Shown here: positions 12,768 to 53,922 of the stretch, piece after piece
Layout of the letters: every line of letters begins with the position of its first letter
Numbering within the stretch: position 1 is the first letter of the stretch
Program-made: the position numbers and the translations under genes
Notes under the pieces: model-generated
What the model was told of the DNA's origin: nothing
What the model saw: only the letters and a program-made list of their open reading frames with translations
Databases searched by the model: none
Assembly (NCBI GenBank): GCA_043228905.1
Contig: JBHGNT010000006.1
Span: forward strand, 12,028,001-12,092,000
Direction: 5' to 3'
Length of the DNA: 64,000 bases
Origin: Azolla caroliniana
Lineage: Eukaryota > Plantae > Polypodiophyta

Positions 12768-12771
12768 TATT

Positions 12772-12789
12772 TGGTGAACCCGATGTGAA
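12772..12789 (+). promoter_or_regulatory. Primer-binding site complementary to the tRNA-Trp 3' end
   Basis: TGGTGAACCCGATGTGAA. One C>T change from the complement of the plant tRNA-Trp 3' end (...UUCACGUCGGGUUCACCA, from memory). Confidence 0.85.
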
Positions 12790-12812
12790 AAGGCGGCAGA
12801 GGAATAGAAAAT

Positions 12813-15800
12813 ATGAGGGGATCCGAGCTTGTTGAAGCTATGGCAGTAGTTGTCGACTGGCTAGTGAGTGCTCGTGAGGGAACGGGTGCCCTTAATAGGG
12901 CCATAGAATCGATTGTCGGCACCATAGCCTGATTCGGTGGGAAGAATGCCACGAGCTATTTGGAGGCCTATTGGGCTGAAATGATCATGAGGGACATCCC
13001 GGAGGACAGACGACTGTCTGGATTCCCTCGAGTGGTGACGCCGAGCATCCACGTGGAGGTGCTCGAGGTGCTAGCTGGATGCCAGGCTTGGGTGGAGCTC
13101 GAGGGGCGGCTCCTCGAGAAGTATGGGTACGACGATTCGCTTCAACTATCGAAGCGGGACTTCATGGCTTGGGCCTGGGAAGGGGAGGATCGGGAGAAGG
13201 TCGCTCTCCTATTGGAGACGGATGACGGCCTCACGGCCGACTAGGCTGTGGTCAAAGGGGTCTGCGCCCGCTTTGACAAGTGGCGCGAGGAGGTCTCGAC
13301 GGCGTCGGAGCCGGTCCCGGCAAGGAAGCTCGAGGAGCCGGTATCGGTGCCGGCTGGGAAGGAAGAGACTCGGAATTGGCTCGAGATGGGCCCAGCCTCA
13401 AGCGGAGTGGTCCAAGGCTCTTCTGGAGGAGCGGCTCTGGAAGAGCTGACGCAAATGGTGCGCGACCTCCAGATCGCACAAGCATGGAGGGACAACGGCG
13501 ATCAACCTCGTGATCGGAGGCCGCGGACGGGGCAACGATGCATGTGGTGTGACGCGGTCGGTCACATCCGGAAAAAATGCGCGGATTTCATAGAGGCACT
13601 TCGGGCCAACGTGGTGTACCTCTGGAATGGGCGGGTGCATGCCGGCGACACGCTGAAAGCCCTAGAGTTGAACAACGGGCGCGGCGGGATGAAGCGCTTG
13701 ATGGAAGAAGCCGCGACGCGACATGTAGAGGCCGTCCACTACTCCGGGTCGGGGGCGACGAGGGTCGAAAGGCGAAAGACCCCGGATTCTGGCTGCTGGT
13801 GCTGGAAGGCCTCTCCGGGGTACAGTTAAAGAAGGAGGAGGCGGACCGCGTGGAATAGCGGATCCGGGGGGTCACCGGATGGGACGATCCAGTTGAAGAG
13901 AAGATTGGCTTCGTGGAAGCCGCATGCCAGAACTACGGGGTTTTGGTAGAAGACAAGCGCGCGGGAAGGGCTAGAGAGGCCGGTCCCTCACAGCGGTACG
14001 AGACCCGGTTCAGACCAAAGCAGAACGATGCTGGCAACACCGGGGTGCCGAATAGAACGAAACGGGCCGGTTACCGGTTGAGCACGGAGATTGAAAGGTC
14101 AACGGACCTGCGGAAGGTCCTCGAGGAGCGGATTCTCGACAGCAAGGTGGAGCTGTCGCTGAGGAAGGTGCTCGGAATCGCCAAGAAGGAGTTCCACGAC
14201 TCCATTGTGGACTTCGTGAAGCAAAAGCGGTTCTCGATGGAATCGGGGCCGGAGAAGTTCGTGGAGGTGCGGATGACGCGCCTAGAAGACACAGCCCTAG
14301 AGGATGAGTTGGCGGACAGCTACTACGTGAAGCCACATTGGGCCAAAGCCACTATGGAGACCCCTGTTTGGGTTGGGGACGTGCAGGAGCCGGTGGTGGC
14401 ATTGATAGACCACGGCTCGAAGATCAACTAGTCCATGGACTTCTACAAAATGGGGAAGTGGCCGATCAACACCAAGCATGGGTGGAAGATACGCATGACG
14501 ACACACGCTACGAAGGAGCTGCATGGTGCGTGCCCGAATGTACGCATAAAGATCAACGACGTTGAGATAGATCAACACTTCTTTGTGCAGGAGACCTCCT
14601 CGCACCCGGTGATACTCGGCGAGCCATACATTACCGCGGCACGGATGGAAACGAAGGTGCTTGACAACGGATCGGCGTATTGTGCGCGTGAAGAGCCAAG
14701 ACGGACAACGCTCCGTTCAATTTTTGACGGTGAGGCCGAACCATGAGCGTAATCGTGAGACCCTCGGCGGCGAGAGCCGAGGGGATTTTTAGAGAGGGCT
14801 ATCAAGGCGTGGGGCCGGGCCGAGATAGTCCGGACTCCTTGGAAGAACCCCACGCATGTACCATAAATAGGAAATTTTGGTTCTCCGATAACGGAGGTTG
14901 TACTATAGCCGGCCTCAGTGGCCAGGAAAAGAAGCGAGTGGAAGAAAGACTCAGAGCGTACAGAGTCCTCGCCCCTGGCGAAGAGATTGGCGGTGCCGTG
15001 GAGGCAGTTTCCTTCGATGACACCTTGGGGGAATTACGCGAGGTTGTCGAGGGAGGCCTTAGTGAAGACCAGGCAGTTCTGGTTAGTTCAGTGGAGATGT
15101 ACGAAGTCATCGCTGACTTCGGGGAAAGGGTCGGGTTCGATCGGACGGCCCGAGTGGATACGAAGTACAAGATTGTGGACCGGAAGGCGAGACCAGTCGC
15201 GGCACCCTTGCTGGAGGGCAGCGAGTTACGGATGAAAGGGGTCGCGTCAGACCCAAGTTTAGGAGATCCGGCTGGCATAGGACACCGATTCACCGACATA
15301 ACGTTACGAGAGCTCAAGGTCGGTGGGGGTGGCTTTCTACTGCTGGCGGAGGAGGACCGGTTTCGGAGAATGCTCGAGAGGCACGGAAAGGCCTTCGCAT
15401 TCTCGCCGGAGGAGATCGGGTGCGTAGACCCGACGATTGTGGAACCAATGGTGATCTTCACGGTACCGCATGTACCGTGGAATCTCAAACCGATTCTAGT
15501 ACCCAGAGCTCACATCCCGAAGTTGATGGAGCTATTGAAACAGAAGGTGGATATGGGCATCCTCGAACCGTCGAGGGCCCCGTATTCTAATCAGTGGCTT
15601 ACCGTGCCCAAGAAGAACGACACATTGTGCTTCATCTAGGACCTACAACCGGTCAACAAGGTGACCATTCGGAACGCAGGAACCAGACCGACCATAGACG
15701 AGTTCGTGGAGGCCTTCGCCGGAAGGTCAATTTACTCGGTTGGTGATCTGTACTCGGGATACGATCAGTTCTAGCTAGCTGTGGAGAGTAGGGACATTAC

Positions 15801-18260
15801 GACGATGCAGACTCCTCTCGGCCTAGTACATATGTGTACCCTTCCGCAAGGAGGGACGAACTCGGTAGCCCACATGGTGAACGCAATGAACAAAGTGCTA
15901 AGGGATTGTATCCCAGACATCACCATGCCATTCTTAGACAACATCCCGATCAAAGGATGCCCGATGGAGGATAAGGACGAGACAATCGGACCGGACGGAT
16001 GCCGGAAGTTCGTGGCGGACCACGTCGATGACTGGGAGAAGGTGCTGCAAAGGCTAGAGGGCGCAAGGCTCACCTTCTCTGGGGAAAAATCGGCCTTCGG
16101 GAAATCGGAGATCATGGTCATCGAACACCTATGCGGGCCATTCGGTCAAAAACCGTCGCTGGCCAAGGTAGAGGCCATCTCCGCAATGAAGCGCAATTGC
16201 AATTCGGTCACGGAAGTCCGGAGATTCTTGGGAGCATGCGCGTTCTACCATATCTGGATCCCGCATTATGCCCATGTTGCGGAGCCGCTCTATGGATTGC
16301 TGAAGAAAGGGTGTAAAGTCGAGTGGAGAGAGGAGCATACGGAGTCAGTCCGAAAAATGAAAGGAGCACTTGTTGTGGCGCCGACACTCCGGAAAGTGGT
16401 CTACGGTAAAGACATTCCGATTTACGTGACCATAGACACGAGTCCGACCAGAATTGGATGGGTGATCAACCAAGAGGATGAGAATGGCACGAGGTTCCCC
16501 ATCCGGTTCGGCGCAAAAGTCCTCAGTGAACGACAGCGAGGGTATGCCCAGGTTAAACGCGAACTCTAGGGTATCGTTTCGGCGGTCAAGGCCGACAAAG
16601 ACTATCTGATTGGGATGGAGGTGATAATTGAGACGGACTGCCTGCCGATTCTCGGTATGGTTTCAAGATGTGTGATGCCGGACCTGGCAATGCTCAGGTG
16701 GATAGCGTACATCAAGTCCCTGAATCCGGAAATACGACACATTTCCGGAAAAGACAACGCCATGGCCGACATGCTTTCGAGGGCGAGATTCGATGATGAG
16801 GACAACATGGTTTTGGAGGACGAAGAAGTCGGCGTGGACTTCTTCGAGACGACTTACGTAACAACAAGGAAGGGGAGCACTCCGGCGCTTAACGAGTTCG
16901 ACGAGAGTAAGTATGACGGGGAGTGGCTCCAGACGGCGGGTTCCTGAAGACAATGACATTGGACATGGCGTGGACGAAGGAAGAGACCAACCGGATTCGG
17001 AAGAAAGCGTACCGATTCTTCTTACGGGATGGGTGCATATGGAAGCACCCGAAGAAGAGAAACGACATCCCGCTCCGGGTTGTGGCGAACAAAGAGGAAC
17101 AGGTGGAACTGTTGACAACGTACCATGAGAGTCCTTGGGCTGAATACTGCGGGACGTGGGCCACATTCGAGAAGCTAAAGGGGAAGTACTGGTGGCGGGG
17201 ACTATACCGGGACGTGCATCGGTTCATGACGGCTTGTGAAAGCTGTCAGATGCACTCCATAGTCCGACGTCGGGATGAGCTCCACCCGACCTACCCTCCG
17301 ACTATCCACTTCAAGTGGATTGTGGATATGGTGACGATGCCGATGGGGGTAGGGCAGATGCGATATCTGGTGCTGGCCCGAGAGGACCTGACAAACCAGG
17401 TGGAAGGCCGAGCATTGCCGAACAAAACGACCGCGGTCGTGTGCCGATTTCTGATCGAAGAAGTGGTATGTCGGTACGGGTGCGTAGGAAAGATCGTAGC
17501 CGACCACGGAGAACTGGATGCAAAGGAGGCTGAAGAGTTGTTTGACCGGCTAGGGGTTAAACTCTCGCTCACCACGGCGTACAATCCGGAGGCGAACGGG
17601 AAGGTGGAATGCGGACACGGGCCGATTGTCAAAGCGTTAGTGCGGGCATATGGAGGCCAAGTCGAAAATTGGCCGCGGCTCTTACCCTATGCGTTGTGGG
17701 CCGACCGAACTATGCATAGTTCGGTAACCGGGTTCATGCTGGCGGAGCTGATGTACGGGCAGAAGCCGGTCATGCCAATGGAGCGAACGATCTCCTCATG
17801 GGCCACGGTGGACTGGAGAGACGAGATGAGCCGGGAAGAGCTGTTAGCGGTGCGGATTCGACAGCTCGAGCGAAGACCGGAGGATGTGGAACGAGCCGCG
17901 GAAAAGCTGCGGGCCGCGAGTGTAAAGAACAAGGGGTGATTCGACCGGACTCACAGACTAAGGCCGAAGAAAATCGAGGAAGGCGACTGGGTTCTGGTAT
18001 ATGACAACAACTTCGACAACCAGCACAAGGCGATGTAGAAGTTCGCAAGGAGGTGGTTCGGGCCTTACGTGGTTACAAGCGCCAATGACAATGGGACCTA
18101 CCATCTCGCGGAGCTTGACGGGACGAGGATGGGAGTACCAGTGGCCGAGAAAAGGATCAAAGCGTTCAAAAAGCGGCACAAGGATGAACCGGACCTGGAT
18201 GACTTGGATAGCGAGGACGATTGGTTCGGAGCGAATGGCGATCCGGAGGACGAAGGGTAA
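12813..18260 (+). pseudogene. G1 gag-protease and RT-RNaseH-integrase coding region, degenerate
   Basis: ORF pieces 12960-13244, 13248-13829, 13913-14431, 14435-14746, 14743-15639, 15781-16569, 16615-16947, 16923-17939, 18069-18260 are colinear with G2. Confidence 0.9.
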
Positions 18261-18333
18261 GCGCGGGCCGGTCTTCTCCGGCAAGAGTTTATTTTGGTGC
18301 ATACCGGTGGATGCGCGGTTAGGTGGGGGCGGA

Positions 18334-19022
18334 TGTCGTGGAGAAAACTGTCCCTAGGCGGAATCGGAGAATGATGTGCACGAACCGGCCCTTACACGCA
18401 GGCACAATTTTTGTTGTAATGTACATATTTGGGTACAAGTCGGCTGATGTGAATATCCTAGGTCGCACGGATTTGATAGGTAGGAAATTGAGGCATATCT
18501 CTGTTCGAAAGGATAGAGAATAAAGATGATGTAACAAGTTGTAACGGCCTCCCTCCTTGGGCTATAAAAGAGAGGGAGAGGAATCGTAAAGGGGATCGCT
18601 TTTGTCGAGGAGGAAGTGCTATCGGACTGGGACCGAGCTCTTCTCCTCCGTCTTTCTCTGTATTTTGCTCTGTGCAGGTTTTGGAGAGAGTGACTCTGCT
18701 CCGCGGAATGCCCGAGTGCTTCTGGCAGAGTCTCCATCTCGCTCTTTTGTGTGCATGTGCATAGGCGTAGGAGATTCATCGCTCACCGTCCTGCTAGTTG
18801 TAACCCCTTATTCATTAGAATATATATATATATATATATACATATACACATTTGTCTCGTTTTCGTTGTTTCATTCGGTTGTGGTTTCTGTGTACCTGTG
18901 TGTTTGTGTGTGTGGACACATAACTGTTGTCTTTCTTGCTCCTACTCCTGATCAGTTATTCCTCGGTCCAATACCCCCGTGGTCCCGCCTCGTTCTATAC
19001 GCACGCGCGTAACAACGCGACA
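18334..19022 (+). repeat. 3' LTR of G1 (689 bp)
   Basis: Direct repeat of 12077-12767, preceded by the PPT and followed by TSD CCGG. Confidence 0.95.
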
Positions 19023-36073: not shown

Positions 36074-38579
36074 TGACGACACCGTACTTCGGCATCTTCT
36101 TCTTTCCCTTCTCTTCGCGCATAAGCTGTGTCCTAGACTTCCGATGCGGGGATTGCACGACCGAGTCTCCACTACTCGCCAACTTTGCGTTTGATTGGTC
36201 ATGCTGACTCGGTCACTCATTCAGCCCACTTAGCCTGAATGAGATCAGACTCTCTTCAGGAGCTCCGATGTTTGCTTCATCCCGAGGCATTTTAGCCTCG
36301 CTGACCTCTTCGTCAGAGATCGGAATGGAGTCGTCAGGGGTTGGAGGCGAGGGCAAGTACCACCACGCAGACTCGTCAAACACAACATCACGACTTACGT
36401 GAGCTTGTTTGGTTCGGGGGTTATAACACTTTTAACCCTTCAGTTCGTCGAGTAGCCAACCAAGATACACTTCTTGGCTTTGGCGTCCAGCGTCCTCCAT
36501 TTCCCCTTCGGCACATGCACATACGTGATGCTACCGAAAACCCTCAAGTGTGCCAAGTTCGGCTTCTTCTTGAAGTACAACTCATGTGGAAACACTCCTC
36601 CATTGGTAGATGCCCAATTCTGGAGGTAGACGACTGTTCTGATCACTTTGGCCCAATAGAACTTTGGCAGATGCTTCTCTTCAAGCATTGCCCTTCCCGC
36701 CTCCTCTATCGTCTGATTCTTCCTCTCGGCCACATTGTTCTGCTATGGCATGTATCTAAACCAGAATTCGCGTCGAATTCCCTCCTTTTGTAGATATCTC
36801 GAGAATTGGTTGGAGAAGTACTCCTTCCCACCATCGGACCTTAGGCACTTGATCTTTCTCCTAGTTTCCCTTTCCGCAAGGCTCTTTACTAGTAGGAAAC
36901 ACGCGAAGACATCTCTCTTTTTCGTGATCAAGTATGCCCAAGTGTGCCGAGTGAAGTCCTCGATGAAGGTTACGAAGTAACAACTTCCTCCGATGCTCAC
37001 GTTCTATGCCGGTACCCATACATTGGAATGCATCACATCGAGCGTATTTCGACTCCGATTACGCTCGTTGGGGAATGGAAGTCGACTCCAACAGATCACC
37101 GATAATCCATGACTGATGCATTTGCCAACGAGATTCGAAATAGTCTACAAAATCCCTCCAAGTTGCTCAAAAGGAGATGGACCTTGACCACTTCACCATA
37201 CAAGATGGTTTGTTATTCCACGATCATCTCTTATATGTCTCGGGGGGCTTGTGTCGCACCCGAGTATTGCGGGAATGCCACGATGACCCCCTTGCAGGTC
37301 ACTTCAGAGTTGCAAAAACCCTCGAGCTAATCTCTCGGGGGTACTAGTGGCCAAAACCATGGAAGTTGGTCAAAGAATACATCAAGACTTGTGAGGTTTG
37401 TGGTCGCTCCAAAGTGGCTCATCATTGCCCATATGGCTTGGTTCACCCGCTTCCATGTCCTAGTCGTCCCAGGGCCTCTATCTCTAGGACCTCATAACTG
37501 ATCTACCCTTGGTCAATAGCTATGACTCAGTGTTGGTCGTTGTTGATTGGTTTACAAAGATGGCTCACTTCACTCCATGCTCAAAAACCATTTCCAGCAA
37601 AGGAATGGCGCATCTACTCCTCAATAATGTCGTATGTTTTCATGGCCTCCCTGATGATGTCATCTCTGATCGCGGACCCCAATTTGTCTCTCACTTCTAG
37701 CAGCGCCTTCTGCAAACTTTAGGCATCTTGGTCAAGTTTTCCTCCGCCTATCACCCTCAGACTGACGGTAAGACGGAGTGCGTCAACCAAATCCTTGACC
37801 AATCACATTTGCTAACCCTTCGGCAGAGGGTTGAGCCCGGGTTTTAGAAGAGCTACATCATGACTTATCCTTGGAGCTTCGTCTCGTTGGTGAACAATAC
37901 AAGAAGCACGTCGATCGCCATCGCTCTGTGACTCCCCCCTTTGCCGTTGGCGACATGGTCTGGTGGTTATGATGGCACATCCCTACTACCCGTCCATGTG
38001 TGAAATTTGATTATAAGAAGTTGGAACCATTCTATATAGTTGAGCGCATTAATTCCATCGCCTTGTTGTCTGCCGGAATAGTAACCGATGGACAGAAGCA
38101 AAGAAGTATTATAATATAGTAAAAGCGTAAGAAACGTATGTAACGGTTCATGCAGGAAGCGTGAACGGCTAAAAGACCCTGTGTATATAAAGGGCAGATA
38201 TCCTCTATAAGAGGTAGTGTGTAATTTTGGTGCATAGAGCGTTATTTTAATAGAGTACTATCTTCTCTGATTTCTGTGCATATCTGTGGTTGATCTATTG
38301 TGTTCTTTGATTCTCGGCCACGTATTGTAATTGTAAGGGCGTAGGCGTAAGTGCGGTTACTAGTGCACTATCTAAGGAGTTCGGTTGTAGCCGTCTCCCT
38401 TATACACTACTAGGATACAGGGAAGTATCCCATTATGTATTACGGTACGACGATACCATTCTTTGCAACGTAGTCACCTTGAGGTCTAGGTTGAAGGACT
38501 GACCGTAGACCGTGTTCCTAATCAGTAACACTTTTGGCACGCAGACTGGTGATCTGTGTCTTCTCACAGATGAACAACG

Positions 38580-41500
38580 ACGAATGGATGTTTAGCCGTA
38601 GACGTCCCAAACAAGACCGACCAATCACAAGGTCCATCACACGCTAGGCAGAGGAGCGCGCAAGGTAAAAACCTCGCCTCAGTGACCTCAATGATATCTG
38701 TCAGGACCACAAAGTCGATTTCCCGCTCAACAAATACCTCGGCGACAAGCAGGAAGTTCGCTCACCACATAAGCATTCTGGTCTTTCCCTGCCCACCGTA
38801 GCGTCCAACATGGCTTTCTCTTATCCCCGGTTCAACGGCGAAACAGACGCTGCAACCCACATTCGCTTGTTCCTGAATGTCTGGAATGCAAATCACATGG
38901 CGCAGAGACTTCTCGAAGAGGTAGCACACTAGTCCAAAATGACAGATTTCAGATTAACTTTGGATGGGAGAGCGGCATTTTGGCATTCGCAGATGGATCT
39001 GCTAGCAATCACGACCTGCGACTAGCTGCAGTCGGCGTTTCTGCGTTTCTTCTATCAGAGAATGCCGTAACGCGAAATCCTCGGGCAGTTCTATACAATC
39101 AAATAGTTGCTGGCCGAGACTGTAGTGGACTTCAATTTATGCTTCCAAAATCTGTAGCGGAAATTAGAATGGGGCCCGACAGAGGACTAGGCTCGGGAGA
39201 CATTTCTGGCAGCTTTACAACGACCGATACGGTCGACGCTCAACAACAATAGTGTGAAAAGAGAAACATTTGATATGGTCATAGAATGAGCGCTACAGCT
39301 CGAGCTGGACGAAGAAGAGGAAAGGTTTTCCATGTCCTCATTACGACAAGCGTTAGCTCAGGACGAGGAACGACATTTTTGCTAGGCAATCCAGTGCATG
39401 ATTTGCCTCAATTCTGGGCATTTCGTAGTGGAATGCAACATGCGAATCCATTGCCCAATCTGTCACTCGAAAGCACTCACGGTCGAGTAGTGTGAGTAAA
39501 ATATGTTGAACAGACCCACGCCCATAGTACGAAGCGTAGAAACACAGCGCTGACGTCGTTGTAATGAGTAAAGGCGCCAAGAAGAACGACCCCGGTATAC
39601 GGATCGGAACCCACGCGATGACCGGCACTACCGAAATCTCTGGAATAACAATGATTCCGAGGAAGAAGACTACCGGGGCAACCATAGATATAATAAAGGA
39701 GGCCGACGCTACGAGAATTACCGTCCGATGAACAAACGTGGCAGCTTCAATGGGTCTCGTGGGAAACATCGTCAGTATCGGGAACAACGGCGGTATGACG
39801 AAAGTTCGGACGATGACTGACACCAGGAGCCGTGAGGGGACCAACAACAACCACCACGAACGCTCAGAAGAATGAACCAAGACCGGGAGGAGCAAGTCAC
39901 ACTTGGGGATAGGAACACACCACCAACTGCCAAGAAAGACAAATCCAACGTCCATTTTTTCGTTTGCCAACAACATGGAAATTACGCCACGCAATGTCCA
40001 CTAAGCAAGGGCAAGGGGCTCATCGTCAATATGATTATGGCGGAAGTTCAGCAAGTTACGACAAGACAGCAAACAAAAAATGTTGATTGGGCCGCGCAAG
40101 ATGAGATACGTCAGACGACCCAAGCATGGGTCGAAAAAGCGAACGCAGCAAATACGGAATGCATGCAGGAGTCCGCGAACAATGTGGGGCCAGTGGAGGA
40201 AGATGTAATATCTCCGGATCCCATATGGCAAGCACTGGCAGGCTGCGAGATAACACTGACCATGGAGAAGCTACTTCAACTAGTCCCACAGTTTCGCCAG
40301 GCCGTAGAGGATCGCATAACGGGCAGACCTAGGGTAAGTGTCTCCGCCAACTTTACGGACACCAGCGTCGGACCAACGGTGGTGGATTACCACAATCCGG
40401 CTATTAAGTTGATATTACACGGTCAGGAAATCACAGGATGCGTAATCGACGACGGCTCTGGCGTCAATGTAATTAGCGCGAATACATTCGAACAATTGAG
40501 AATTTCAGAATGGGAAGCTTGCCCGTTTTGGCTTCGCATGGTGGATACCCGCTCAGTAAGGCCTTTAGAATTAATACGAAAATTAGGCATTATCGTTGGC
40601 GGACATCGCTTCGACATCTCGGTGGTAGTCCTCGCCCTCGACGCCCCAGGAGCGTATCTTATGCTGCTTGGTAGACATTGGCTTCGTTCAGCGAATCTCA
40701 AACAGAGCTGGCAACATAAGTGCATCAGCTTTCGACGCGGACGCACCAAGGTTCACGTACCCACAAGGGAAATGGCGGCACAACCCAAGGGCCTAACACC
40801 GTTATATGTGGAAGATATAAATATGTTGGTTGGGGTGGATGATATAGAATTAGCAGTATACCTCGACGAGCACCCCCAAATCTTTCCGCTATTCGAAATC
40901 GACGTCATAGAAACCGCGGCGGAGTATGCCACGCCCACTGCGCTCCACGATGAGGCTTACGAACCAGACCTAGAGTCAATTTTAGAATTAAGCAGAGCAT
41001 GGGCGTAGTTTGAGAGGGAAATGGAAATTTCACGACGAGTCGCTGCCTCAGCCCTAGAAGAAGTAAACGTCGGTACGACGTCAGACCCTAATTCCTCTCC
41101 ATCGCAAAAGAATTACTGCCGGATCAGAGAGAGGTGATGATAGCACTACTCAGGAAGTATAAAGATGTGTTCGCTTGGTCCCATGAGGATATGAAGGGAT
41201 TAGATCCGAAGTTCTATCAACATAAGATCAATTTAGTGACCGATGCGAAACTGGTCCAGCAACGTCCATACCGCATGAACCCAAATTATGTGGCTCACGT
41301 AAAAGAGGAAATTGACAAACTCCTCAAGGCCGGATTCATTCGACTAGTCAAACAAGCTACATGGCTAAGCCCGATAGTAGTCGTACCAAAGAAAAATGAC
41401 AAAATACGTGTGTGCGTGGACTACCGAAAATTGAACGTCGTAACCATTACAGGCGCGTTCCCTTTACCTTTCACCGACAGCGTACTGGATGCTGTCGTAG

Positions 41501-43763
41501 GGCATGACATGTACAACTTTTTAGATGACTTCAGTGGGTACAATCAAGTACGCATGCACCCCAACGACCAAGAGAAGATGACGTTTGTCATAGACTAGGG
41601 AATCTATGTCGCGGTCGTCATGATGTTTGGGCTAAAGACGGTGCCGGCTACATTTCAACGGACAATCACGGGAATTTTTGGGGAATATATAACTGCCTTC
41701 ATGCAGGTCTTTTTACATGATTTTGCGGTATATGGGACAGGAGCCGAACATTTTACGCATCTACAGCTTTGCCCGGAGTGTTGCCGAACTGCATGCTTAA
41801 GCCTAAATCCCGCCAAATGCGCCTTTGGCGTCACCAATGGGGCCCTCCTCGGCCACCTAGTTAGTAAGGAGGCGATAGCGGTCGATCCGAACAAAATCTC
41901 CGTGATTACTCATGCAAAAACACCGACAAACGCGAAAGTACTCAGCCGGTTTTTGGGACAAATACAATGGCACAACCGGATGATACGCTATTTGGCGGAT
42001 TTCGCCACACCATTACATGTCGTTGTTCACCGTACTCCTTTTAAATGGACAACAATGGAGGAGAAGGCGTATGATGCACTAAAAATAATGCTAACGTAGG
42101 AACCAGTGTACAGCCACTAGTTTGGGCGAAACCATTTCACGTGTTTGTGGATGCCTCAGATATAGCGATAGGTAGTGCGCTGATGCAACTCACAAAGCCG
42201 AATTGGTACTGACCAGTGTACTATGCTAGTCAGAAACTATCAAAGGCTGAGCGTAACTATTCCACAACGGAACGTGAAGCGTTGGGTATGATATACAACA
42301 TCAATAAATTAGGGCATTATCTGCTAGGGCAAAAATTCACGTTTCACGTGGATCATACGACATTGCTATATCTGGTGGGGAAACAGGTACTGACGGGAAA
42401 ATTGGCTAGATGGATGTTGTTGCTCCAAGAATTTGACTTTGTAATTCAACACTGACCAGGTACGCAACACGTGGTGGCGGATTTCTTGAGCAGACTAGAT
42501 AATGGAGAAATGGCGCAAAAAGATGACGATAATTTCCGGACGTGGACATTCTGCGTATAGCAACTTTAGTAGCAAGAACAGAAAAGACTTTTCCGGATCG
42601 GTGGTTGATGGAAATGACCTACTTTCTAACCACAGGGTTACCGCCACCAAAATTAAGGACGGACGAGAAAAAACGGCTAGCCGTACGGAGTCGTAATTTC
42701 TATTTAGTTGAAGACGTCCTATATCACAAAGGCAGTGACGACATTTGGAGGCGCGGAATACAGCAGGATGAGAAGGCAACGGTTTTATGTGAAGCCCACT
42801 ATGGTATGGCGGGAGGACATTATGCGGGCGATGTTACGGCTCGAAAAATCTGGCAAGCAGGACTTTGGTGGCTGACTACGCAAAAAGATGCGTATGAATA
42901 TTGCAAACAGTGCGATTTATGCCAACGGATGGGCCAATCCACGGAAGTTGCGAGAATGCCACATCAATTGGTGTTGCCGTTGGATCCTTTCCAAAAGTGG
43001 GGGCTGGATTTTGTGGGACCCTTTACCCCGACAACTGCTCGAACAGGCAATAAGTATATCCTGGTGGCTATGGATTACTGCACCAAGTGGGTAGAAGCGA
43101 AAGCACTATGCGAAAATACCGCGGCAGTCACGACGAAATTCCTTTGCGAACATATCTGGTGTCGTTTTGGCTGCCCTATCGAGCTCATTAGTGTCCAAGG
43201 GAGTTCCTTTTTGAATACAGTCATCCGTAAACTAACCCAACACTACGCTGTGGTTCACAAAAAGAGTACGCCGTATTACCCATAGGCAAATGGCTTGGCC
43301 GAATCCACGAACAAAACATTACAAACTATCCTAAAAAAGATAGTCAATGAGAACAGTACGAGACCGGCTGCTAGAGGGCAAATCTGAACAAATGCGACTA
43401 CAACAATTGCTAGAACTAGGCATAACCCGGGTACGCAGTATGGCCATATTGGAACAAGAACAACGGTGGCGCAAAGCATTCGTGGACCGACATTGGCATG
43501 CGCGTGAAAAGGATTTTATGGTCAGGAAGGCGGTATTAGTTTTTCAAACACACATGGGGCAAATGCTAGGAAAATTAAGATTCCACTGGACAGGCCCATA
43601 CTTGATAGTTGGAGCGGAAAATGACACGTTTCAACTTGGCACCTTGGCCGGAGAGGTGCTCCGGCAAAAGGTGAATGGGTTTTGCTTAAAACCCTACCTG
43701 GGGCCTAAGACACTTAACTCGTTCCCCGCCGAACAGGACAAAGCCAGCGAATCCGTGGAGTAA
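38580..43763 (+). pseudogene. G3 gag-pol, degenerate
   Basis: ORF pieces 39872-41008 (knuckle remnant + PR), 41134-42099 (RT), 42216-42455 (RH), 42542-43763 (INT). Start coordinate approximate. Confidence 0.88.
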
Positions 43764-43820
43764 GTATAGGGCTCTACTTGTACTGTAGTGTACAAATAAT
43801 ATTGTATGTAACTGTTATGA

Positions 43821-43890
43821 AAGAAGAAGAAGAAGAAGAAGAAGAAGAAGAAGAAGAAGAAGAAGAAGAAGAAGAAGAAGAAGAAGAAGA
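43821..43890. repeat. (GAA)n microsatellite, about 23 units, between pol and the extra ORF of G3
   Basis: Directly visible. Confidence 0.95.
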
Positions 43891-45203
43891 TAGCGACGCT
43901 ATTAAAAGGACTTGATGCATGCACAAACTTCTAGAGCAAGAACACACGACACCACGATGGCTCACAGACCAATGAACCCTAGGCCACAAAAAGAAGAAAA
44001 TAGAAGGTTTTCTGCACAGTACAGAAACCAACCTTCTAACTCTCATCGCTCTCATCACTCCCCTCACTCACCTTCCTCTCCATCCTACCATAGAGCCCAA
44101 GTTCGCCATAACCAACATACCTCACCCACTATCCACGAGTCTCACCCTCCTACGGTGCCGATCCCTATTTCCTGCCACCTTGCGTAGATGGCTCGTCGAG
44201 AAGCGTCTGGATGGATACATCAAAGTCGCCGAGGTACCCACTCATCTTAAAGCCCTGGACATCGTCAAGAAACTCAATATAGACACGGTCACCAACTCAT
44301 CAATTCGGAAGAAGCTTGACCTATCATCGTTCGGAGAAAGACATTTTGACATTCCTCCAGCGGAAACCTTGTAGAGATATTTTGAGGCATATTCAGCGTC
44401 CGCCAAGGCATACAGGACGAAGGAAATCCCCGATCCCTTCTTCTGCGAAATAGCCAAGTTCTTGTTGGAAGTCGGATGCTTGCATGTAAATTGCCTATGG
44501 GATGCCAAAACAGAAGGCATGCAGCATCATTGATACCTTCGAAGGGCGCGCGGTCGATTAGGGGGTCATTACGGGACCAATGTTACAGGAAGGCCTGCAC
44601 GCGTATCAAGGCGGCAAAAAGCTAAGGCCGATCATACAATAGTATCTGATGATACTATTCCCACCCCAGGGTCTGCCTGCACCACAACCCAGCAAGCCCA
44701 CACCGCCGCCACGTTTTGCGAAACGGAGGTTAGCGGAATTGGTCACCAAAAAATGGGAGGATGAACCCCAATCGGCCCAACCCAGCATGCGGACAACACA
44801 TGAAGAATGGCCGGAGCGCAGGGAAGAAGCCCCGCAGGAGCAGGAAGCCGAGCAACGTCAGGAAAGCCCGAGGTTGAAACGGCAGAGGTTGGACAGGAAA
44901 GATGGGCGCGGATTAGTTAAAGACACACTAGCGGCCGTAGCTACGGAGCCCAACACCACTTTCGAAATAATCCGGGAACCACGACCGATCATTATGGCCC
45001 AGTCTCAGCGGGGGAAGGCGTATTTACAGCAGAAAGCGAGTTCCTGAAGTATCCGGATATTCCGGACACAGGCCACGAGTTCGGTGCACTATTACAGTTC
45101 GGCACTACTTACGAACTCATGGAATTTTTGGCAACACAACAAATAAAAGTCTCACAACGAATGGCCGAGGAGCACGCGGAGCAACAAATGATTGAGTGCA
45201 CGT

Positions 45204-48200
45204 TGTCGTGAAGAAAACCGTCCACAAGCGGAATCGGTGCACCGGAGCGTAGGAACCGGCTCTTCATGCACGTACACCTTATGTTGTACATAAGAGAGAA
45301 TTAGGTACATAGAAGATCCTAGGTAGGTAGATTCGGTAGGTAGGAAGTTAATGGGAAACAGCTCCTTTCTTGCCTATAAAAGGAGGGAGACGGGGAGGAG
45401 GAAAAGGGGGGATCGCGGTTAGAGAAGACGAAGTGCTGTCGGGTTGTCGGCCGAAGGCTTCTCTCTCTTCCATACTCCGTAGCTTCTTCTTGTGCAGGTT
45501 TTCGGGGAGGCTCGCGCTGCTCTGAGGAATGCCCAAGTGCTTCCGGCAGCACCTCCAACCTACTCCTTTCTTTCTGAGTGTTTACGAACAGGCATCGACA
45601 TCTGTTCGCCGGCCTTTTCGGTTGTAACCGACTTCGGGCTTCTTGTTGTTTGTCCTTGTTAATATATATATACATACATTCGTGTCTCTCTGCGTCGGTG
45701 TCCCACTCGCGTCTTTGTGTCGAAGGGCCGTGTCCCTGTGAATCTACGCCCACACGTAGTGGGTCCCTTCCCTTCTCCTTTGTCTCTTGCTCTTCGGTAC
45801 AAGACCCCCGAGCCCCCGCCTCATTCCACGCATCCATGAGGAATACCTCGACATCTTGGTGAACCCGACGTGAAAGAGGCGGCAGAAGAGCAGAAGATGA
45901 AGGGGTCGGATCTTGCGGAGGCCATGGCTTCGGCCGTGGATCGGATATTGAGCGCACGCAAGGGCACCGACGCCCTCTATAGAGCCATTGAGGTGGTCGT
46001 CGGTACGATTGGCCGGTTCAGCGGAAAGGATGCCACGAAGTATTTGGCGTCCTACGGGGCAGAAATGTTGATGCGGGGCATTCCGGAAGAGAGGCGTCTT
46101 GCCAGGTTCCCTCGAGTGGCGATGCCGAGCATCCATGCGGAGGTGCTCGAGGTACGGGTGGAGAGCCGTACCTGGGAGGAGTTCGAAGGCCGACTCCTAG
46201 AAAAATACGGGCTGGATGACGCGCTCCGGCTTGCGAAACGGGACTTCATGGAATGGGTGGAGTCCCCCCCGGCAAGGGAAGAAACGCGTCGGCACTCCTC
46301 CGGGAGTTTGAGGAACGCTTTGCGCGCCTTTCGGCGCTTGACCGAACCGTTCTGGATACGAGCCGGGTCCTACTGTTCGTCAAGTCGGTGGACGAGCGGG
46401 ACCGGGATCAAGTCGGCTCCTTGCTGGAAACCAAAGACGGGCTGACGACCGACTGGACTGCGGTTAAGAGAGTCTGTGGCCGTTTCGACAAACGGCGAGA
46501 ATGGGCTGATAACGGGGCGGCCGGTGCGGGCTCTGTCACAGCAAGGAGGCTTGAACCGGCCCCGCAAGGGCGAAGGGAAGAGACCCGGGAGTGGCTCGAA
46601 ACCGGTTCGGCTTCGACCGGCATGGTCAATGGCTCGTCCGGAAGAGCAGCGCTGGAGGAGTTGACGTGGGCGATAAAGGATCTCCAGATCGCCCAGGCTC
46701 GAAGGGAAGGCGGCGAACCGGCTCGTGACCAGCACTTCTTTGTGCAGGAGACGTCCTCGCACCCGGTCATATTAGGGGATCCATACATCACGGCGGCGCG
46801 GATGGAGAACAAGCTGCTAGACAACGGTTTGGCCTACGTGAGGGTCAAAAGCCAGGACGGGCGCCATTCGGTCCAATTTCTGACGGTGCGACCGAACCAC
46901 GAGAGAAACCGCGAATCCCTCGGTGGTGAGAACCGGGAGGTTTTTTAGAGAGGGCTGCCAAGGCATGGGGCCGAGACAGTCCGGACACTCGGGAAAGACC
47001 CCACAACTGTACGATAGAACCGAAACCGAAGAAACCTTGTACGATAGGTAGAAAATTTTTCTTCTCCAACGACGGTGGGTGTATGATAGTCGGCATCGTT
47101 GGCCGAGAAAAGGCAAGGGCGGAGGAGCGACTTCGAGCGTGCGGAGTTCTCGGCCCGGACGAGGAAATCAGCGGAGCCGTGGAGGTGGTCTCCTTCGACG
47201 ACACCTTGGGGATACTGAGGGAGGTAGCTGGAGAAGACCTTAACGAAGACCGGACGATACCGGTATGTTCTGAAGAGATGTACGAAGTCATCGCGAACTT
47301 CAGTCAGGGGCTCGGGTCGGATCGGACGGCCCGGGTTAGCACGAAGTACAAGACTGTGGACCGGAAGGTAAGGCCAGTCGCAGCACCCTTACCGGAGGGC
47401 AGCGAGTCCCGGATCAGAGGGGTTGCGACGGACCCCAGTTTGCGAGATCTGGTCTGCATAGGACACACCTTCACCGACGGGACGCTCTGGGAGCTCAAAA
47501 TCGGTGGGGGCGGGTTCCTACTGCCAGCGGAGGAAGACCGGTTTCGGAGAATGCTCGGAAGGCACGGGAAAGCCTTCGCATTCTCACCATAAGAGATCGG
47601 GTGCGTAGACTCGACAATCCTGGAGCCGATGGTGATATTCACGGTACCGCATGTGCCGTGGAATCTCAAGCCGATTCCAGTACCGAGAGCTCACATCCTG
47701 AAGTTGATGGAGCTATTGAGGTAGAAAGTCGATATGGGCATTCTCGAACCGTCGAGTGCCCCATACTCGAACCGGTGGTTTACCGTACCAAAGAAAAACG
47801 GAACATTGCGCTTCATTCGAGACCTGTAGCTGGTCAACAGAGTGACCATTCGGAACGCAGGAATCAGACCGACCATAGACGAGTTCGCGGAGGCCTTCGC
47901 CGGAAGGTCGATTTACTCGGTCGGTGACCTGTACTCGGGGTACGACCAGTTCCAGCTAGCCGTTGAGAGCAGAGACATTACGACCATGCGAACTCCCCTT
48001 GGCCTAGTGCGAATGTGTACCCTGCCACAAGGAGGGACCAATTCGGTGGCCCACATGGTGAATGCAATGAACAAGGTACTGAGGGATTGCATCCCGGACA
48101 TCACCATGCCATTTCTAGACGACATCCCGATCAAGGGGTGCCCGGTGGAAGAGAAGGACGAGACACTCGGGCCGGACGGATGCCGACGATTCGTGGCAAC

Positions 48201-51165
48201 ACACATCGACGACTGTGAGAAGGTGCTACGAGGGCTAGAGGTTGCGAGGCTCACCTTCTCCGGGGAGAAATCGGCCTTCGGTCAATCAGAAATCCTGGTG
48301 GTCGGACACCTATGTGGACCATATGGCCGGAAGCCGTCCCCGGCAAAGGTAGAAGCCATCTCCGCGATGAAGACCGACTGTAGCTCGGTTACGGAAGTTC
48401 GGAGGTTCCTGGGGGCGTGCGCATTCTACCACATATGGATCCCGCATTACGCCCACGTTGCGGAGCCGCTATACGGGTTGCTGAAGAAGGGGCGAAAATT
48501 CGAGTGGCGAGACGAGCACACAGAGTCGGTCCGGAAGCTGAAGGAAGCTCTTGCGGCAGCACCGGCGCTCCGGAAGGCTGTCTACGAGAAGGGTACCCCG
48601 GTATACGTAACGGTGGATACGAGTCCGACCGGGATCGGATGGGTCATCAACCAAGAAGACGAGGACGGCATTCGGTTCCTGATCCGATTCGGCGCAAAGG
48701 TCCTCAGTGAGCGACAACGAGGGTACGCCCGGGTTAAACGCGAACTCTAGGGTATCGTTTCGGCAGTAAAGGCCGACAAAGACTACTTGATCGGGACAGA
48801 AGTGATTATCGAGACGGATTGCCTGCCAATTCTCGGCATGGTCTCCGGATGCGCGACACCGGACCTGGCGATGCTCAGGTGGATAGCGTACATCAAGTCC
48901 TTGGACCCGGAAATACGACACATTTCCGGAAAGGACAACGCCATGGCCGACATGCTTTCGAGGGCGAGGTTTGATGACGAGGGCGTCATGGTTTCGGAGG
49001 ACGAAGAAGTCGGCGTGGACTTCTTCGAGGCGGCGAACGTGACGACCGATGGGGCGAGCACTCCGGCACTTAACGGCTTCGACGAGAGCAAGTACGACGG
49101 CGAGTGGCTACAGATCGGTGGTATTTTGAGGACAATGACGCCGGATGCGTCATGGACGAGGGACGAGGCCAACCAGATCCGGAAGAAAGCATACCGATTC
49201 TTTCTCCGGGACGGATACTTATGGAAGCACCCAAAGAAGAGGAACGACGTCCCGCTCCGGGTGGTGGAGATGAAGGAAGAACAAGAGGAGCTGCTGACGG
49301 CCTACCACGACAGCCCTTGGGCTGGACACCGTGGAACGTGGGCCACGTTCGAGAAGATAAAGGGGAAGTACTGGTGGCCGGGACTGTACCAGGACGTGCA
49401 TCGGTTCGTGACAACTTGCGAGAGCTGTCAGATGCACTCCATAGTCCGACATCGGGACGAGCTTCACCATACGTACCCTCCGACCATCCACTTCAAATGG
49501 ATGGTAGATCTGGTGACGATGCCGATGGGAGTAGGACAGATGCAGTATCTGGTTCTGGCTCGGGAAGATCTGACGAACTAGGTGGAAGGCCGAGCCCTTC
49601 AGAACAAAACGACCGCGGCCGTATGTCGGTTCCTGATCGAGGACGTGATATGCCGGTACGGGTGCGTCGGGAAGATCGTGGCTGATCGCGGGGAGTTGGA
49701 CGCCGAAGAGGCCGAGGAGCTGTTCGACCGGCTAGGAGTCAAGCTGTCGCTTACCACTGCGTACAATCCGGAGGCGAATGGGAAGGTGGAGCACGGACAC
49801 GGACCGATCGTCAAGGCGTTAGTTAGGGCATGCGGAGGTCAAGTCGGGAACTGGCCGCGGCTGCTGCCTTACGCGTTGTGGGCTGACCGAAGTACGCACA
49901 ATTCGGTAACCGGATTCATGCCGGCAGAGCTCTTGTTTGGGCAGAAGCCGATCATGCCGATGGAACGTACAATCTCCTCATGGGCAGCCGTGGATTGGAG
50001 AGACGAGATGAGCCGGGAGGAACTGTTGGCGGCGCGCATACGACAGCTCGAGCGAAGACCGGAGGACGTGGAGCAGGCTGCGGGAAAGCTTCGGGTGGCA
50101 AGGACGAGGAACAAAGCCCGGTTCGATAGGACGCACCGGCTCCGACCAAAGAAGATTGAGGAAGGCGACTGGGTGCTAGTCTACGACATCAGCCTCGACA
50201 ACCAGCACCGAGCGACACGGAAGTTCGCAAGAAGGTGGTTCGGGCCTTACGTGGTACAAAGCGCCAACGACAACGGGACGTACCATCTGGCAGAACTTGA
50301 CGGCACGAGAATGGCGATACCGGTAGCTGGGAAGCGGATCAAAGCGTTCAAGAAGTGTCACGACGACGAGCCGGATCCGGTTAACCTGGACCGCGACGAC
50401 GAACGATCCGAAACCGAGGAAGAACCGACGGGCGGGGAATGAAGGCTGGACCGGTTTTCTCCGTCCCAACTCAATTTGGCGCATGCCGGTGGATGCGCGG
50501 TTAGGTGGGGGCGGATGTCATGAAGAAAACCGTCCACAAGCGGAATTGGTGCACCGGAGCGTAGGAACCGGCTCTTCATGCACGTACGCCTTATGTTGTA
50601 CATAAGAGAGAATTAGGTACATAGAAGATCCTAGGTAGGTAGATTCGGTAGGTAGGAAGTTAATGGGAAACGGCTCCTTTCTTGCCTATAAAAGGAGGGA
50701 GACGGGGAGGAGGAAAAGGGGGGATCGCGGTTAGAGAAGACGAAGTGCTGTCGGGTTGTCGGCCGAAGGCTTCTCTCTCTTCCATACTCCGTAGCTTCTT
50801 CCTGTGTAGGTTTTCGGGGAGGCTCGTGCTGCTCTGAGGAATGCCCAAGTGCTTCCGGCAGCACCTCCAACCTACTCCTTTCTTTCTGAGCGTTTACGAA
50901 CAGGCATCGGCATCTGGTCGCCGGCCTGTTCGGTTGTAACCGACTTCGGGCTTCTTGTTGTTTGTCCTTGTTAATATATATATACATACATTCGTGTCTC
51001 TCTGCGTCGGTGTCCCACTCACGTCTTTGTGTCGAAGGGCCGTGTCCCTGTGAATCTACGCCCACATGTAGTGGGTCCCTTCCCTTCTCCTTTGTCTCTT
51101 GCTCTTCAGTACAAGACCCCTGAGGCCCCGCCTCATTCCACGCATCCGCGAGGAATACCTCGACA
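45204..51165 (+). mobile_element. Gypsy element G2 (relative of G1), internally deleted, nested in G3
   Basis: 650-bp LTRs 45204-45853 and 50516-51165, roughly 3% different by my manual count. TSD ACGT/ACGC, PBS 45857-45874, PPT AGGTGGGGGCGGA. RT DLYSGYDQF / FLDDI, RH and INT colinear with G1. Confidence 0.95.
45857..45874 (+). promoter_or_regulatory. PBS, 18-nt complement of the tRNA-Trp 3' end
   Basis: TGGTGAACCCGACGTGAA, 3 nt after the LTR end. Confidence 0.88.
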
Positions 51166-53922
51166 ACGCTAACACAAACAACGGAAAGCGATGATGAGGG
51201 GCCGCTAGCCAGACTAGGCAGACAACAGAATGTCAGGATACACCGAATGGGAATTGAACTACCCCCATTCAACGCGGCCCTCGTCGAGGTTCATAGGGAA
51301 CTAGCAAAGGTCAGTCTTGGAGTCAAGGATATGGTGATTAAAAATGAAAATTCTGGAAAACGGTTAAACAGACCCAAGCTGAGCTACAAAAGGCCAACGA
51401 ATGCATCACGGAGTTAGAACGTAACGCGACTACGGCACAACAGGCATCTCGACCAATAGACAATGCCGCCGAGGCCTAGTCCCTGAGAGAAGAGGTTGAA
51501 GCACAGACCGCCATTGCCTCGAAAGCAAAGAGGGCCGTGCAGCTGGCGGAATTGGAGATTGACCGCCTCCGCTCTGAACTTCGCCAATCCGCTGACAGAG
51601 AAAAGGACATTCGGGCCAACGGCCGAAAGGCAGTGAAGACCCTTGAAGAGAAACTTATAGCGGAGGCAACACAACACACCTGCGCGAAAGAAGAAAACTC
51701 CAAACTACGGGAGGAAGTGCAGAAATCGGAAACAATGATCACGGGACTCCGGGCGTTATTGGAAAAGAAGAAAGCATGGTTCGATGAGTAGCCTGTACGG
51801 GAACAGGAAAGGCGGCATCAGCTCGAAATCCGCTTGAACAATGAAATGGGAAATCTGGAGGAGTTACATTCGAAGAAATCTCCGCTATGGGCAGGAATGA
51901 GGAGCAATTATGAGGAAGCGGCGGCAGTCAGTAAACAAGAAATCGAAAACCTCAAGAAAACCGTGGAAGAAGCACACAACCGCTGCCAAGCAATAACCGA
52001 CAACGTGTGCATACTTCTTCAAACAAATCGGGAGAGGTTTAGGACGCAATTACAAGCGGCTCTAGAGAAAGGATGGATGGCGTGGGCTGCACAAGTGGCG
52101 GAGTTGCATACTTACCGGTCGGACTGGGAGAACCGAAGAAAAGATGGCTGAGGTTTCTACAAACTCAATGAGGAAAGCATTGCGGCAGTACGCGAGGACC
52201 TAGTGCAGGATTATCACACGCTAGCGGACCAACACTCCGAGGAACTCGCGCAACTACTAGACGATTTTGGCGAAAGTCAGGAGGACATGTTTCACCAAAT
52301 CATGCAAGCCGGCAACACGCGACCAAATGAGGAATCCATCCTGATACCAGTAAAGGATACTGTTGAACGAGAGGAACCTCAACCCACGTCATCGGAAATA
52401 ACCACTACGGTGGGCAGCACAGAACAAGAAGCGGAGCCCCCCACGATACCCGAAAGTGAGACTGCCGAACAGGACGAACCTCAGCCCCATTCACTGGAGC
52501 GTACAACCACGATTGGCAACACGGAGGAAGTTACGGACAGGACAAAGCCTCAACCTCCCGAGAGCCCACAGGTGGATGAGCCAGCTGCAGTAGAATGGGA
52601 GGAGCCAATAGAGCCCGGACCGCCCACACCAGGAGACCTTAACACCATGGAAAGCCCCACCGAGCACGTACAAGACATGGAACCGCGTAACAACGCATCT
52701 ACGGACACTACCCCGTCCCCGGACTAGGACATCAGGGCGGAACCAAACATCCGTGCCATTTTGGAGGAAGATTAAAGGAGTGGGTTTGACGTGCCATGGC
52801 ACTGTCCCATAGGCGTGCCAGGTGTTGTCCGTTGGAATAGTAACCGACGGACAGAAGCGAAGAAGTATTATAATATAGTAAAAGCATAAGAAACGTATGT
52901 AACGGTTCACGCGGGAAGCGTGAATGGCTAAAAGACCCAGTGTATATAAAGGGCATAAATCTTCTGTAAGAGGTAGCGTGTAATTTTGGTGCATAGAGTG
53001 TTATTTTAATAGAGTACTATCTTCTCTAATTTCTGTGCATATCTGTGGTTGATCTACCGTGTTCTTTGATTCTCAGTGACGTATTGTAATCGTAAGGGCG
53101 TAGGTGTAAGTGCAGTTACTAGTGCATTGTCTAAGGAGTTCGGTTGTAGCCATCTCCCTTATACGCTACTAGGATACGGGGAAGTATCCCTTTATGTATT
53201 ACGGTACGATGGTACCATTCTTTGCAACGTAGTCACCTTGAGGTCTAGGTCGAAGGACTGACTATAGACCATGTTCCTAATCGGTAACACGCTTTCCGGC
53301 TAGCCCTTCTGTCCCACTTCCGGATTCATGATGTTTTCATGTCTCCCTCCTCGAGCCCCATTATCCTTCACAAATCCCAGGATGCCAGGCCCCTCCACAA
53401 TCCCCTGTGGAATTGACGACAGGCGAGGAATACGAGGTCGACCAAATACTTGACTCACGTTTGCATCATCGACACCTGCCTCAAGATTTTCATCGCTGAT
53501 ATCCCCACAAACCGGTGACAGGTTTGGGAAGGCGGCGTAGGAGGGGGGATAATGTCACATCTAGGATGTGACTTGAAACTGTGACCTGTGACACACCCAA
53601 TATGTAGTATTAGATAAACCATTTGGAAACCCTTAAGTTATATGTAAGTTTGTATATGGTGCATATTGTACAACATAGCATATAGAATATTCTAGTCTTT
53701 AGTTTATTCTAGAAATATTCTATGGTATATTCTAGATGAGTATATTCTAGAGATATTTCTTAGGTATATTCTAGAGATTTTCAATCTCAAAACTTGTATA
53801 AATATGTGTGTTCATCTATATTATAATCAAGGTGAACAATACCAATTAGGGAGTCTTTCGATTAATCAACTCATCCCTCTGATTATCTTGTACTCTCTTG
53901 TGTATATTTTCTACCCGTGACA

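What the first reader, a model, noticed from the sequence alone, without database searches (positions are those of the whole stretch)
52752..52822. tRNA-3'-end mimic / triple anti-PBS motif where the polypurine tract should be
Seen: G3 has no purine tract next to its 3' LTR. The nearest purine-rich run (52763-52784) is ~40 nt away. Instead GTCCCATAGGCGTGCCA (52804-52820) lies 2 nt from the LTR, mirroring the PBS at the other end. GCGTGCCA is the exact complement of the element's own short PBS TGGCACGC (38535-38542). CGTGCCA occurs three times (52752, 52790, 52814), and a local TGGCAC (52797) allows alternative hairpins. Known, from memory: plant tRNA-Arg(UCU) ends roughly GUCCCACYGGGYGUGCCA. 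Inference: this could be an RNA cyclisation switch, an element-encoded primer, or tRNA-related plus-strand priming.
Basis: partly seen in the sequence, partly recalled or inferred. Interest (0 to 1): 0.78.

Follow-up and report, generated by a model that had tools for sequence, protein, structure and literature searches.

The report
tRNA landing site replaces polypurine tract
A group of plant jumping genes lacks the purine tract that normally starts the second DNA strand and carries there a conserved, hairpin-split copy of a tRNA's end, so a second host tRNA likely starts that strand, a route I did not find in the papers searched.

Summary
The motif is real, conserved and larger than reported. 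This non-chromovirus Ty3/gypsy element has no PPT. Positions 52779-52820 copy tRNA nt 49-58, then a covarying 4-bp hairpin, then nt 59-76 minus one C, ending 2 nt before the 3' LTR. The 17-mer plus exactly 2 nt plus TGT occurs in 90 of 109 metagenome hits (about 25 sequence groups, some short non-autonomous elements) and dominates unselected contigs from runs holding this DNA. Position 58 is free, and the common substitutions at 49-57 are those that remain wobble pairs if a tRNA anneals to the minus strand. Two details are quirks of this decayed copy: the 'triple' repeat, and the 8-nt PBS (a private 3-nt insertion; relatives have 10-14 nt that follow the tRNA, not the motif). Best reading (about 0.6, inferred): a second host tRNA, probably tRNA-Arg, primes plus-strand DNA. 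Main rival (0.22): the element's own RNA piece is the primer. No cDNA or RNA data were available. The scan noted this before on many other pieces of this genome; those notes are not independent support.

The parts
38059..38063 (+). 5' target-site duplication CGCCT (3' copy CGCTT at 53290-53294)
38064..38530 (+). 5' LTR, 467 bp, TG..CA
   Evidence: end supported by low-agreement loose ends behind 38530
38535..38551 (+). PBS, 4 nt after the LTR; 14 nt in relatives, broken here by a private 3-nt insertion at 38543-38545
38552..38575 (+). Hairpin behind the PBS, then CGAAC (TGAAC here; 38571 reads C in about 92% of depth), complementary to tRNA nt 53-57: predicted second half of the minus-strand primer site
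   Evidence: pairing is inferred
38700..43800 (+). Decayed gag-pol (RT, RNase H with its four acidic residues present, integrase); no extra archaeal-type RNase H seen; limits approximate
43900..52776 (+). Decayed extra forward ORF after integrase, interrupted by a nested element at 45204-51165; its stop lies just before the tRNA-like block; limits approximate
52779..52789 (+). Copy of tRNA nt 49-58 (T-stem 5' strand and T-loop) at 52780-52789; position 58 free
52790..52803 (+). Inserted C + 4-bp hairpin (GTGC-CATG-GCAC here) + invariant T; arms covary between families
52804..52820 (+). Copy of tRNA nt 59-76 lacking one C (65/66), ending in CCA; its minus strand reads as a PBS
52821..52822 (+). 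2-nt spacer: length fixed, identity variable (TG 58, AG 11, GG 10, other 5 of 84)
52823..53289 (+). 3' LTR
   Evidence: start supported by low-agreement loose ends before 52823

Best explanation
This Ty3/gypsy lineage has no polypurine tract and carries, 2 nt before the 3' LTR, a conserved hairpin-split copy of tRNA nt 49-76, which likely lets a second host tRNA anneal to the new minus-strand DNA and prime the plus strand. Shown: absence of a PPT, conservation, spacing, hairpin covariation, and the match to a real tRNA 3' half. Inferred: (1) RNase H clears the RNA, so the minus strand exposes PBS-like 17 nt, hairpin, then a T-arm complement; (2) the tRNA pairs through nt 59-76 (one C bulged) and 49-57, with the hairpin looped out opposite unpairable m1A58; (3) RT extends the CCA end through 2 nt into U3; (4) RNase H removes the tRNA and integrase trims the 2 nt. 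The 5' PBS uses a similar split design (10-14 nt, hairpin, CGAAC) on the RNA for the first tRNA. The tRNA is probably cytosolic tRNA-Arg (identity recalled, host gene not seen).
For: Unselected contigs: summed depth rises from about 2-4k over the extra ORF to 120-200k over 52800-52849 in X1 (same shape in 4 of 4 runs; not a copy number). The only listed change in 52788-52831 is 52810 T>C (80-96% of depth), towards the tRNA. Pattern scan: 90 of 109 hits have 17-mer + 2 nt + TGT, though 0-4 nt were allowed. Features not in the pattern: T before the motif in 75 of 75; nt 50, 51, 52, 54 match the tRNA in 71-72 of 74, against a top base of 27-54 of 74 in the 12 columns upstream. Position 58 is A 30, G 23, T 11, C 10 of 74, and m1A58 cannot Watson-Crick pair (PMC13191261, passage). 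Group-level changes at 49-57: 23 G>A or T>C (wobble if the minus strand pairs with tRNA), 0 C>T, 11 other. Hairpin: 7 different perfect arm pairs; mean 3.44 pairs against 2.79+/-0.07 in 1000 arm swaps. Cofolding gives the predicted junction: nt 49-57 paired to the minus strand in 62-74 of 75 against 22-51 in the control. Binding is -24 to -35 kcal/mol against -10.5 to -17.5 for PBS-motif pairing (13 sites). Short elements with 508-924 nt interiors keep both sites, and L069 has no purine run of 9 or more. An Rfam-aligned tRNA (L110) carries the same 3' half with the extra C.
Against: No cDNA ends, particles or RNA were examined; everything mechanistic is comparative. The host tRNA gene was not seen: the stand-in L110 is bacterial, with CCA added. 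Invariant C56 with variable R57 is also what a plus-strand T-loop mimic would show, and G53>A is tolerated in a plus-strand fold by shortening the stem. Plus and minus strands fold about equally well (-13.5 vs -12.8 kcal/mol as RNA). Hairpin mismatch polarity is weak (A.C 21, G.T 11) and confounded by deamination. G>A is also the genome's commonest mutation class, and the 25 groups are not independent. The invariant missing C weakens tRNA pairing and instead lengthens an intramolecular stem in some families. Energies use RNA-RNA parameters. The 17-mer's invariance in the 109 hits is by construction, and 69 variant rows were hidden.
Confidence: 0.6

Rival explanations
1. The element's own RNA segment, a tRNA-like hairpin ending in CCA, resists RNase H and is the plus-strand primer: a non-purine PPT that RT reads with its tRNA-recognition surface.
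For: Same position and 2-nt spacing as a PPT; needs no second tRNA or priming on a DNA template. The plus strand folds GTGGG/CCCAC with the small hairpin in many families. C56 and R57 fit a T-loop consensus. Ty3 PPT choice depends on hybrid geometry, not purines alone (PMC5371799, passages).
Against: A58, which pairs with U54 in a T-loop (PMC13191261), is A in only 30 of 74; T55 is C or A in 20 of 74; G53 is A opposite C61 in 27 of 74. An RNA fully hybridised to minus-strand DNA cannot fold at the time it primes (inference). The 5' PBS has the same split design where the partner must be tRNA.
Confidence: 0.22
2. The motif pairs with the PBS on the same RNA (cyclisation or PBS masking, a built-in 3'-tRF-like brake), and plus-strand priming occurs by some other signal.
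For: 8-11 contiguous complementary nt between PBS and motif in 13 of 13 linked sites. In Ty3 the tRNA bridges the 5' and 3' ends (PMC5371799).
Against: PBS-motif binding is weaker than tRNA binding to the minus-strand site at all 13 sites. nt 49-65 are kept in families whose PBS is only 10 nt. The common PBS C>T change has no listed partner change in the motif. It explains neither the missing PPT nor the fixed 2-nt spacer.
Confidence: 0.1
3. The motif is a true PBS for an antisense transcript, so the element can be copied from either strand's RNA.
For: The minus strand reads LTR-CA, 2 nt, PBS, hairpin, T-arm complement, a better tRNA match than the sense PBS; the wobble polarity is the same as in the best explanation.
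Against: All coding frames and the TATA-like box are on the + strand; sense replication would still need a plus-strand primer at this exact place.
Confidence: 0.05
4. A relic of one old copying accident (captured tRNA or inverted PBS) spread passively.
For: All family-type hits may come from one host or close relatives (near-identical LTR starts in L007, L106).
Against: Motif, spacing and hairpin pairing persist while LTRs and upstream sequence differ among about 25 groups, with compensatory changes.
Confidence: 0.03

Closest known systems
Canonical LTR-retroelement priming (Ty3, HIV-1; PMC5371799 and PMC13191261, passages read)
   Same: tRNA at the PBS for the minus strand; plus-strand primer ending just upstream of U3; RT, RNase H, integrase; TG..CA LTRs with TSD.
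   Different: No RNase H-resistant purine tract; a tRNA-end copy occupies its place.
Extended or bipartite tRNA sites: Ty1 and Ty3 bipartite PBS, HIV-1 primer activation signal
   Same: Acceptor end and T-arm of the tRNA pair with two separated segments; in Ty1 a small loop lies between them (PMC5371799).
   Different: Those segments are complementary to tRNA on the genomic RNA and serve minus-strand initiation. Here the 3' site is identical to tRNA on the RNA, complementary only on the minus strand, and sits at the plus-strand start.
Plant non-chromovirus Ty3/gypsy: Athila, Tat/Ogre/Retand, Phygy, Selgy (PMC6317226, passages and supplementary file 3)
   Same: RT falls in a 99/98 group with aRH-bearing and seed-plant rows; 5-bp TSD; extra forward ORF; PBS probably for tRNA-Arg, as in Ogre and TatIII.
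   Different: No aRH (not Tat); PBS not Asp/Asn and RT outside the seed-plant cluster; TSD and PBS unlike Phygy and Selgy. The passages seen mention no PPT-less group.
Self-priming elements (Tf1/Sushi, Tcn1, TAR; PMC6317226)
   Same: A standard primer is replaced by another nucleic acid.
   Different: They replace the tRNA for the minus strand and, as recalled, keep a PPT; here the PPT is what is replaced.

Membership tests
Ty3/gypsy LTR retrotransposon | Direct LTRs with TG..CA and TSD | tested here: met
Ty3/gypsy LTR retrotransposon | Domain order RT-RH-INT | tested here: met
   RVT_1 at 41092-42096 and rve/H2C2 at 42533-43282; RNase H motifs between
Ty3/gypsy LTR retrotransposon | tRNA PBS behind the 5' LTR | tested here: met
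   14-nt match to the tRNA end of L110 plus CCA in 5 of 11 linked loci, 8-11 nt in the rest
Ty3/gypsy LTR retrotransposon | PPT abutting the 3' LTR | tested here: not met
   longest purine run in the last 60 nt is 7 or less in 83 of 86 and 23 nt or more from the LTR in 86 of 86 (the last 19 nt are fixed by the search pattern); unselected contigs agree
Tat (TatI-III, Ogre, Retand) | Additional archaeal-type RNase H | tested here: not met
   no PF13456 in close relatives P0001-P0009 including the full polyprotein P0003; none seen in the window translation
Athila | RT clusters with Athila; PBS Asp/Asn/Ala | tested here: inconclusive
   no labelled Athila reference; seed-plant rows form a separate 100/100 cluster; PBS identity as Arg is recalled
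Phygy / Selgy | 4-bp TSD, no extra ORF, PBS Trp or Ala | tested here: not met
   5-bp TSD, extra ORF; definitions
tRNA gene or tRNA-derived SINE | Full cloverleaf | tested here: not met
   ARAGORN 0 genes in the window; no tRNA hit in 52000-53400
Dual tRNA-primed element (proposed) | Host tRNA covalently on the 5' end of plus-strand cDNA | not testable with these tools
   needs particles or a reconstituted reaction

The most novel reading that the evidence does not exclude
A high-copy plant LTR-retrotransposon clade has abandoned the polypurine tract and primes both cDNA strands with host tRNA, the second annealing to minus-strand DNA through a split site built around m1A58.
Probability: 0.6. 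Interest if true: 0.9.

Novelty: new variant of a known kind. Interest (0 to 1): 0.8.

Why it matters
PPT priming of the plus strand is treated as general for retroviruses and LTR retrotransposons. A successful clade that replaced it with a tRNA site, or with a tRNA-like RNA, shows that RT can define the U3 end another way. It gives a simple bench test of primer recognition, adds a second target for tRNA-fragment control of transposons, and means PPT-based annotation tools could miss or mis-orient these elements.

Tried and rejected
Own genome not held. Longer metagenome records behind L085, L087, L107 not held, so no intact second element with both flanks was read. No RNA holder listed: no evidence either way on expression or small RNAs. 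Viral contigs: no relatives by protein, no motif. ARAGORN and Rfam see no tRNA at the locus. Folding z-scores of this copy's motif are not significant (-0.13 to -1.70), so the structure rests on covariation. MAFFT misregistered the hairpin between families, so pairs were counted in a script anchored on the motif. Plus-versus-minus folding energy and hairpin mismatch polarity did not discriminate. Paper searches for the PBS or tRNA letters returned only unrelated listings, so the Arg identity stays recalled. Rejected: element on the minus strand (coding is +); the 52763-52784 purine run as a displaced PPT (it is the ORF end plus T-stem, not conserved); triple repeat as a feature. Rows dropped: 19 of 109 hits without 2 nt + TGT (16 look like chance hits, judged by eye; L072, L082, L086 are family-like with other spacing or a contig end), L078 and L083 (no upstream block), hits with under 60 nt upstream, and duplicates, leaving 84 rows and 75 distinct sequences including the window.

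Full report
Context. The window holds a decayed Ty3/gypsy element on the + strand. Its LTRs are 38064-38530 and 52823-53289 (38 differences in 467 bp; TSD CGCCT/CGCTT). It has RT and integrase Pfam hits in that order, RNase H motifs between them, and an extra forward ORF interrupted by a nested element. Its RT is 72% identical to unnamed proteins P0003/P0004 and lies in a 99/98 group with aRH-bearing and seed-plant rows. It is outside the seed-plant cluster (39 rows, 38 chosen by me plus window frames; no labelled lineage references). The host is a plant by inference from these relatives; no genome is held.

Observation. The two other LTR elements checked end in a G-rich tract flush with the LTR; this one does not.

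Unselected family evidence. Contigs of public runs laid at 80% likeness (4 runs, at most 3 samples, two organism labels) show summed depth of about 2-4k over the extra ORF and 120-200k over 52800-52849 in X1. Loose ends lie before 52780/52781 and behind 52853, so many subfamilies with different neighbours share just this block. Depth is not a copy number. Between 52788 and 52831 the only listed change is 52810 T>C (80-96% of depth) and no indel is listed; 69 rows were hidden. Position 52754 is G in 96-98%, so the first CGTGCCA is private. At the other end other copies lack 38543-38545, giving a 14-nt PBS with C or T at its ninth place, and 38571 reads C in about 92%.

Pattern scan. The 17-mer with 0-4 nt before TG gave 109 hits; 90 have exactly 2 nt then TGT (one search counts 91 with the window). 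After the exclusions listed under Tried and rejected, 75 distinct sequences form 25 single-linkage groups with different LTR starts. The invariance of the 17-mer here is by construction; what lies upstream is not. A T precedes the motif in 75 of 75. A 4-bp hairpin precedes that: 4 pairs in 43, 3 in 24, fewer in 8, with 7 different perfect arm pairs, mean 3.44 against 2.79 in swaps (maximum 3.05 in 1000). Before the hairpin lies a 10-nt block. Removing the insert gives a pattern that hit one real tRNA among the genome contigs (L110, bacterial, Rfam 53 bits). Its alignment identifies the block as T-stem 5' strand and T-loop (nt 49-58) and the 17-mer as nt 59-76 lacking one C. The identity as plant tRNA-Arg is recalled; the host gene was not seen.

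Which strand works. In 74 sequences nt 50, 51, 52 and 54 are 96-97% conserved. G53 is A in 27, T55 is C in 16, G57 is A in 21, C56 is T in 5, and position 58 takes all four bases. At group level there are 23 G>A or T>C changes, no C>T, and 11 others. G>A and T>C keep wobble pairs if a tRNA pairs with the minus strand, and the free position is the one that m1A blocks from pairing (PMC13191261). Cofolding with the L110 tRNA end reproduces a three-way junction with the hairpin looped out, A58 mostly unpaired and C66 bulged. The 5' site mirrors this on the RNA in the 14-nt PBS families: PBS, hairpin, CGAAC, and in one subfamily CGAGC, the wobble now on the plus strand. Against: C56 and R57 also fit a T-loop mimic, G>A is a common mutation here, the groups are related, and both strands fold about equally. 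The strand argument therefore favours, but does not prove, a real tRNA partner.

PBS follows the tRNA, not the motif. In 5 of 11 loci that also hold a 5' junction the PBS matches the tRNA over 14 nt, including the C the motif lacks, and matches the motif over 11; the others match 8-11 nt to both. This disfavours an element-encoded minus-strand primer. PBS-motif pairing is weaker than tRNA pairing with the minus-strand site at 13 of 13 sites. Short elements with 508-924 nt interiors keep both sites; L069 has no purine run of 9 or more, while the other five examined have runs 170 nt or more from the LTR.

Mechanism. I commit to tRNA priming of the plus strand on minus-strand DNA (0.6), with the 2-nt spacer as the end trimmed at integration; these steps are inferred. 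The element's own RNA as primer is the main rival (0.22). This copy is likely dead, with stops throughout and an insertion in the PBS.

Literature. Seen: PMC6317226 (passages, supplement search, supplementary file 3 whole), PMC5371799 and PMC13191261 (passages), PMC11963269 (one passage); all else as search listings only. Searches listed 0, 1, 1, 1 and 0 papers; by title and abstract start none describes a tRNA site in place of a PPT. The library lacks most subscription and older papers and matches exact words only, so absence from print is not established. Five supplementary files of PMC6317226 were held as text (17,418 characters in all) and no per-element table was among what I saw; it may bear on lineage placement.

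Earlier scan notes. At least 11 notes on other pieces of this genome reach the same or a similar reading, and two single fungal copies are noted. My reading was recorded before seeing them; they are not independent evidence.

Verdict. Real, conserved and structured; a new variant of LTR retrotransposon whose second-strand priming would be new if confirmed. Interest 0.8.

Noticed in passing
window 12077-19022 and 45204-51165: Two related LTR elements with 4-bp NCGN-type TSDs (CCGG; ACGT/ACGC), a normal G-rich PPT and a PBS starting TGGTGAACCCGA (tRNA-Trp, recalled). These features match Phygy as tabulated in PMC6317226, which was described from one moss only.
   Followed up: partly
window about 37100-38063 and 53290-53480: The element sits inside a decayed integrase and chromodomain-like remnant (read by eye, Tcn1-like; no tool run).
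   Followed up: no
window 52152-52776; L007, L063, L070 and others: The extra 3' ORF has tblastn matches in 26 loci and in several families ends in a similar acidic tail just before the tRNA-like block; no Pfam hit for 52152-52724.
   Followed up: partly
L018, L021, L023, L054, L069: Short, apparently non-autonomous elements (508-924 nt interior) with the PBS and the 3' tRNA-like site: minimal substrates for a priming assay.
   Followed up: partly
L110 200-274: Bacterial tRNA with a 9-nt anticodon loop, called Asp by ARAGORN; a neighbouring tRNA has an unassigned anticodon.
   Followed up: no
window about 43850-43895: Long GAA-repeat (poly-Glu or poly-Lys by frame) between integrase and the extra ORF.
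   Followed up: no
window 38531-38534: The LTR-PBS spacer is 4 nt in all 12 family sites seen, while the 3' spacer is 2 nt; the two cDNA ends would be trimmed differently.
   Followed up: no
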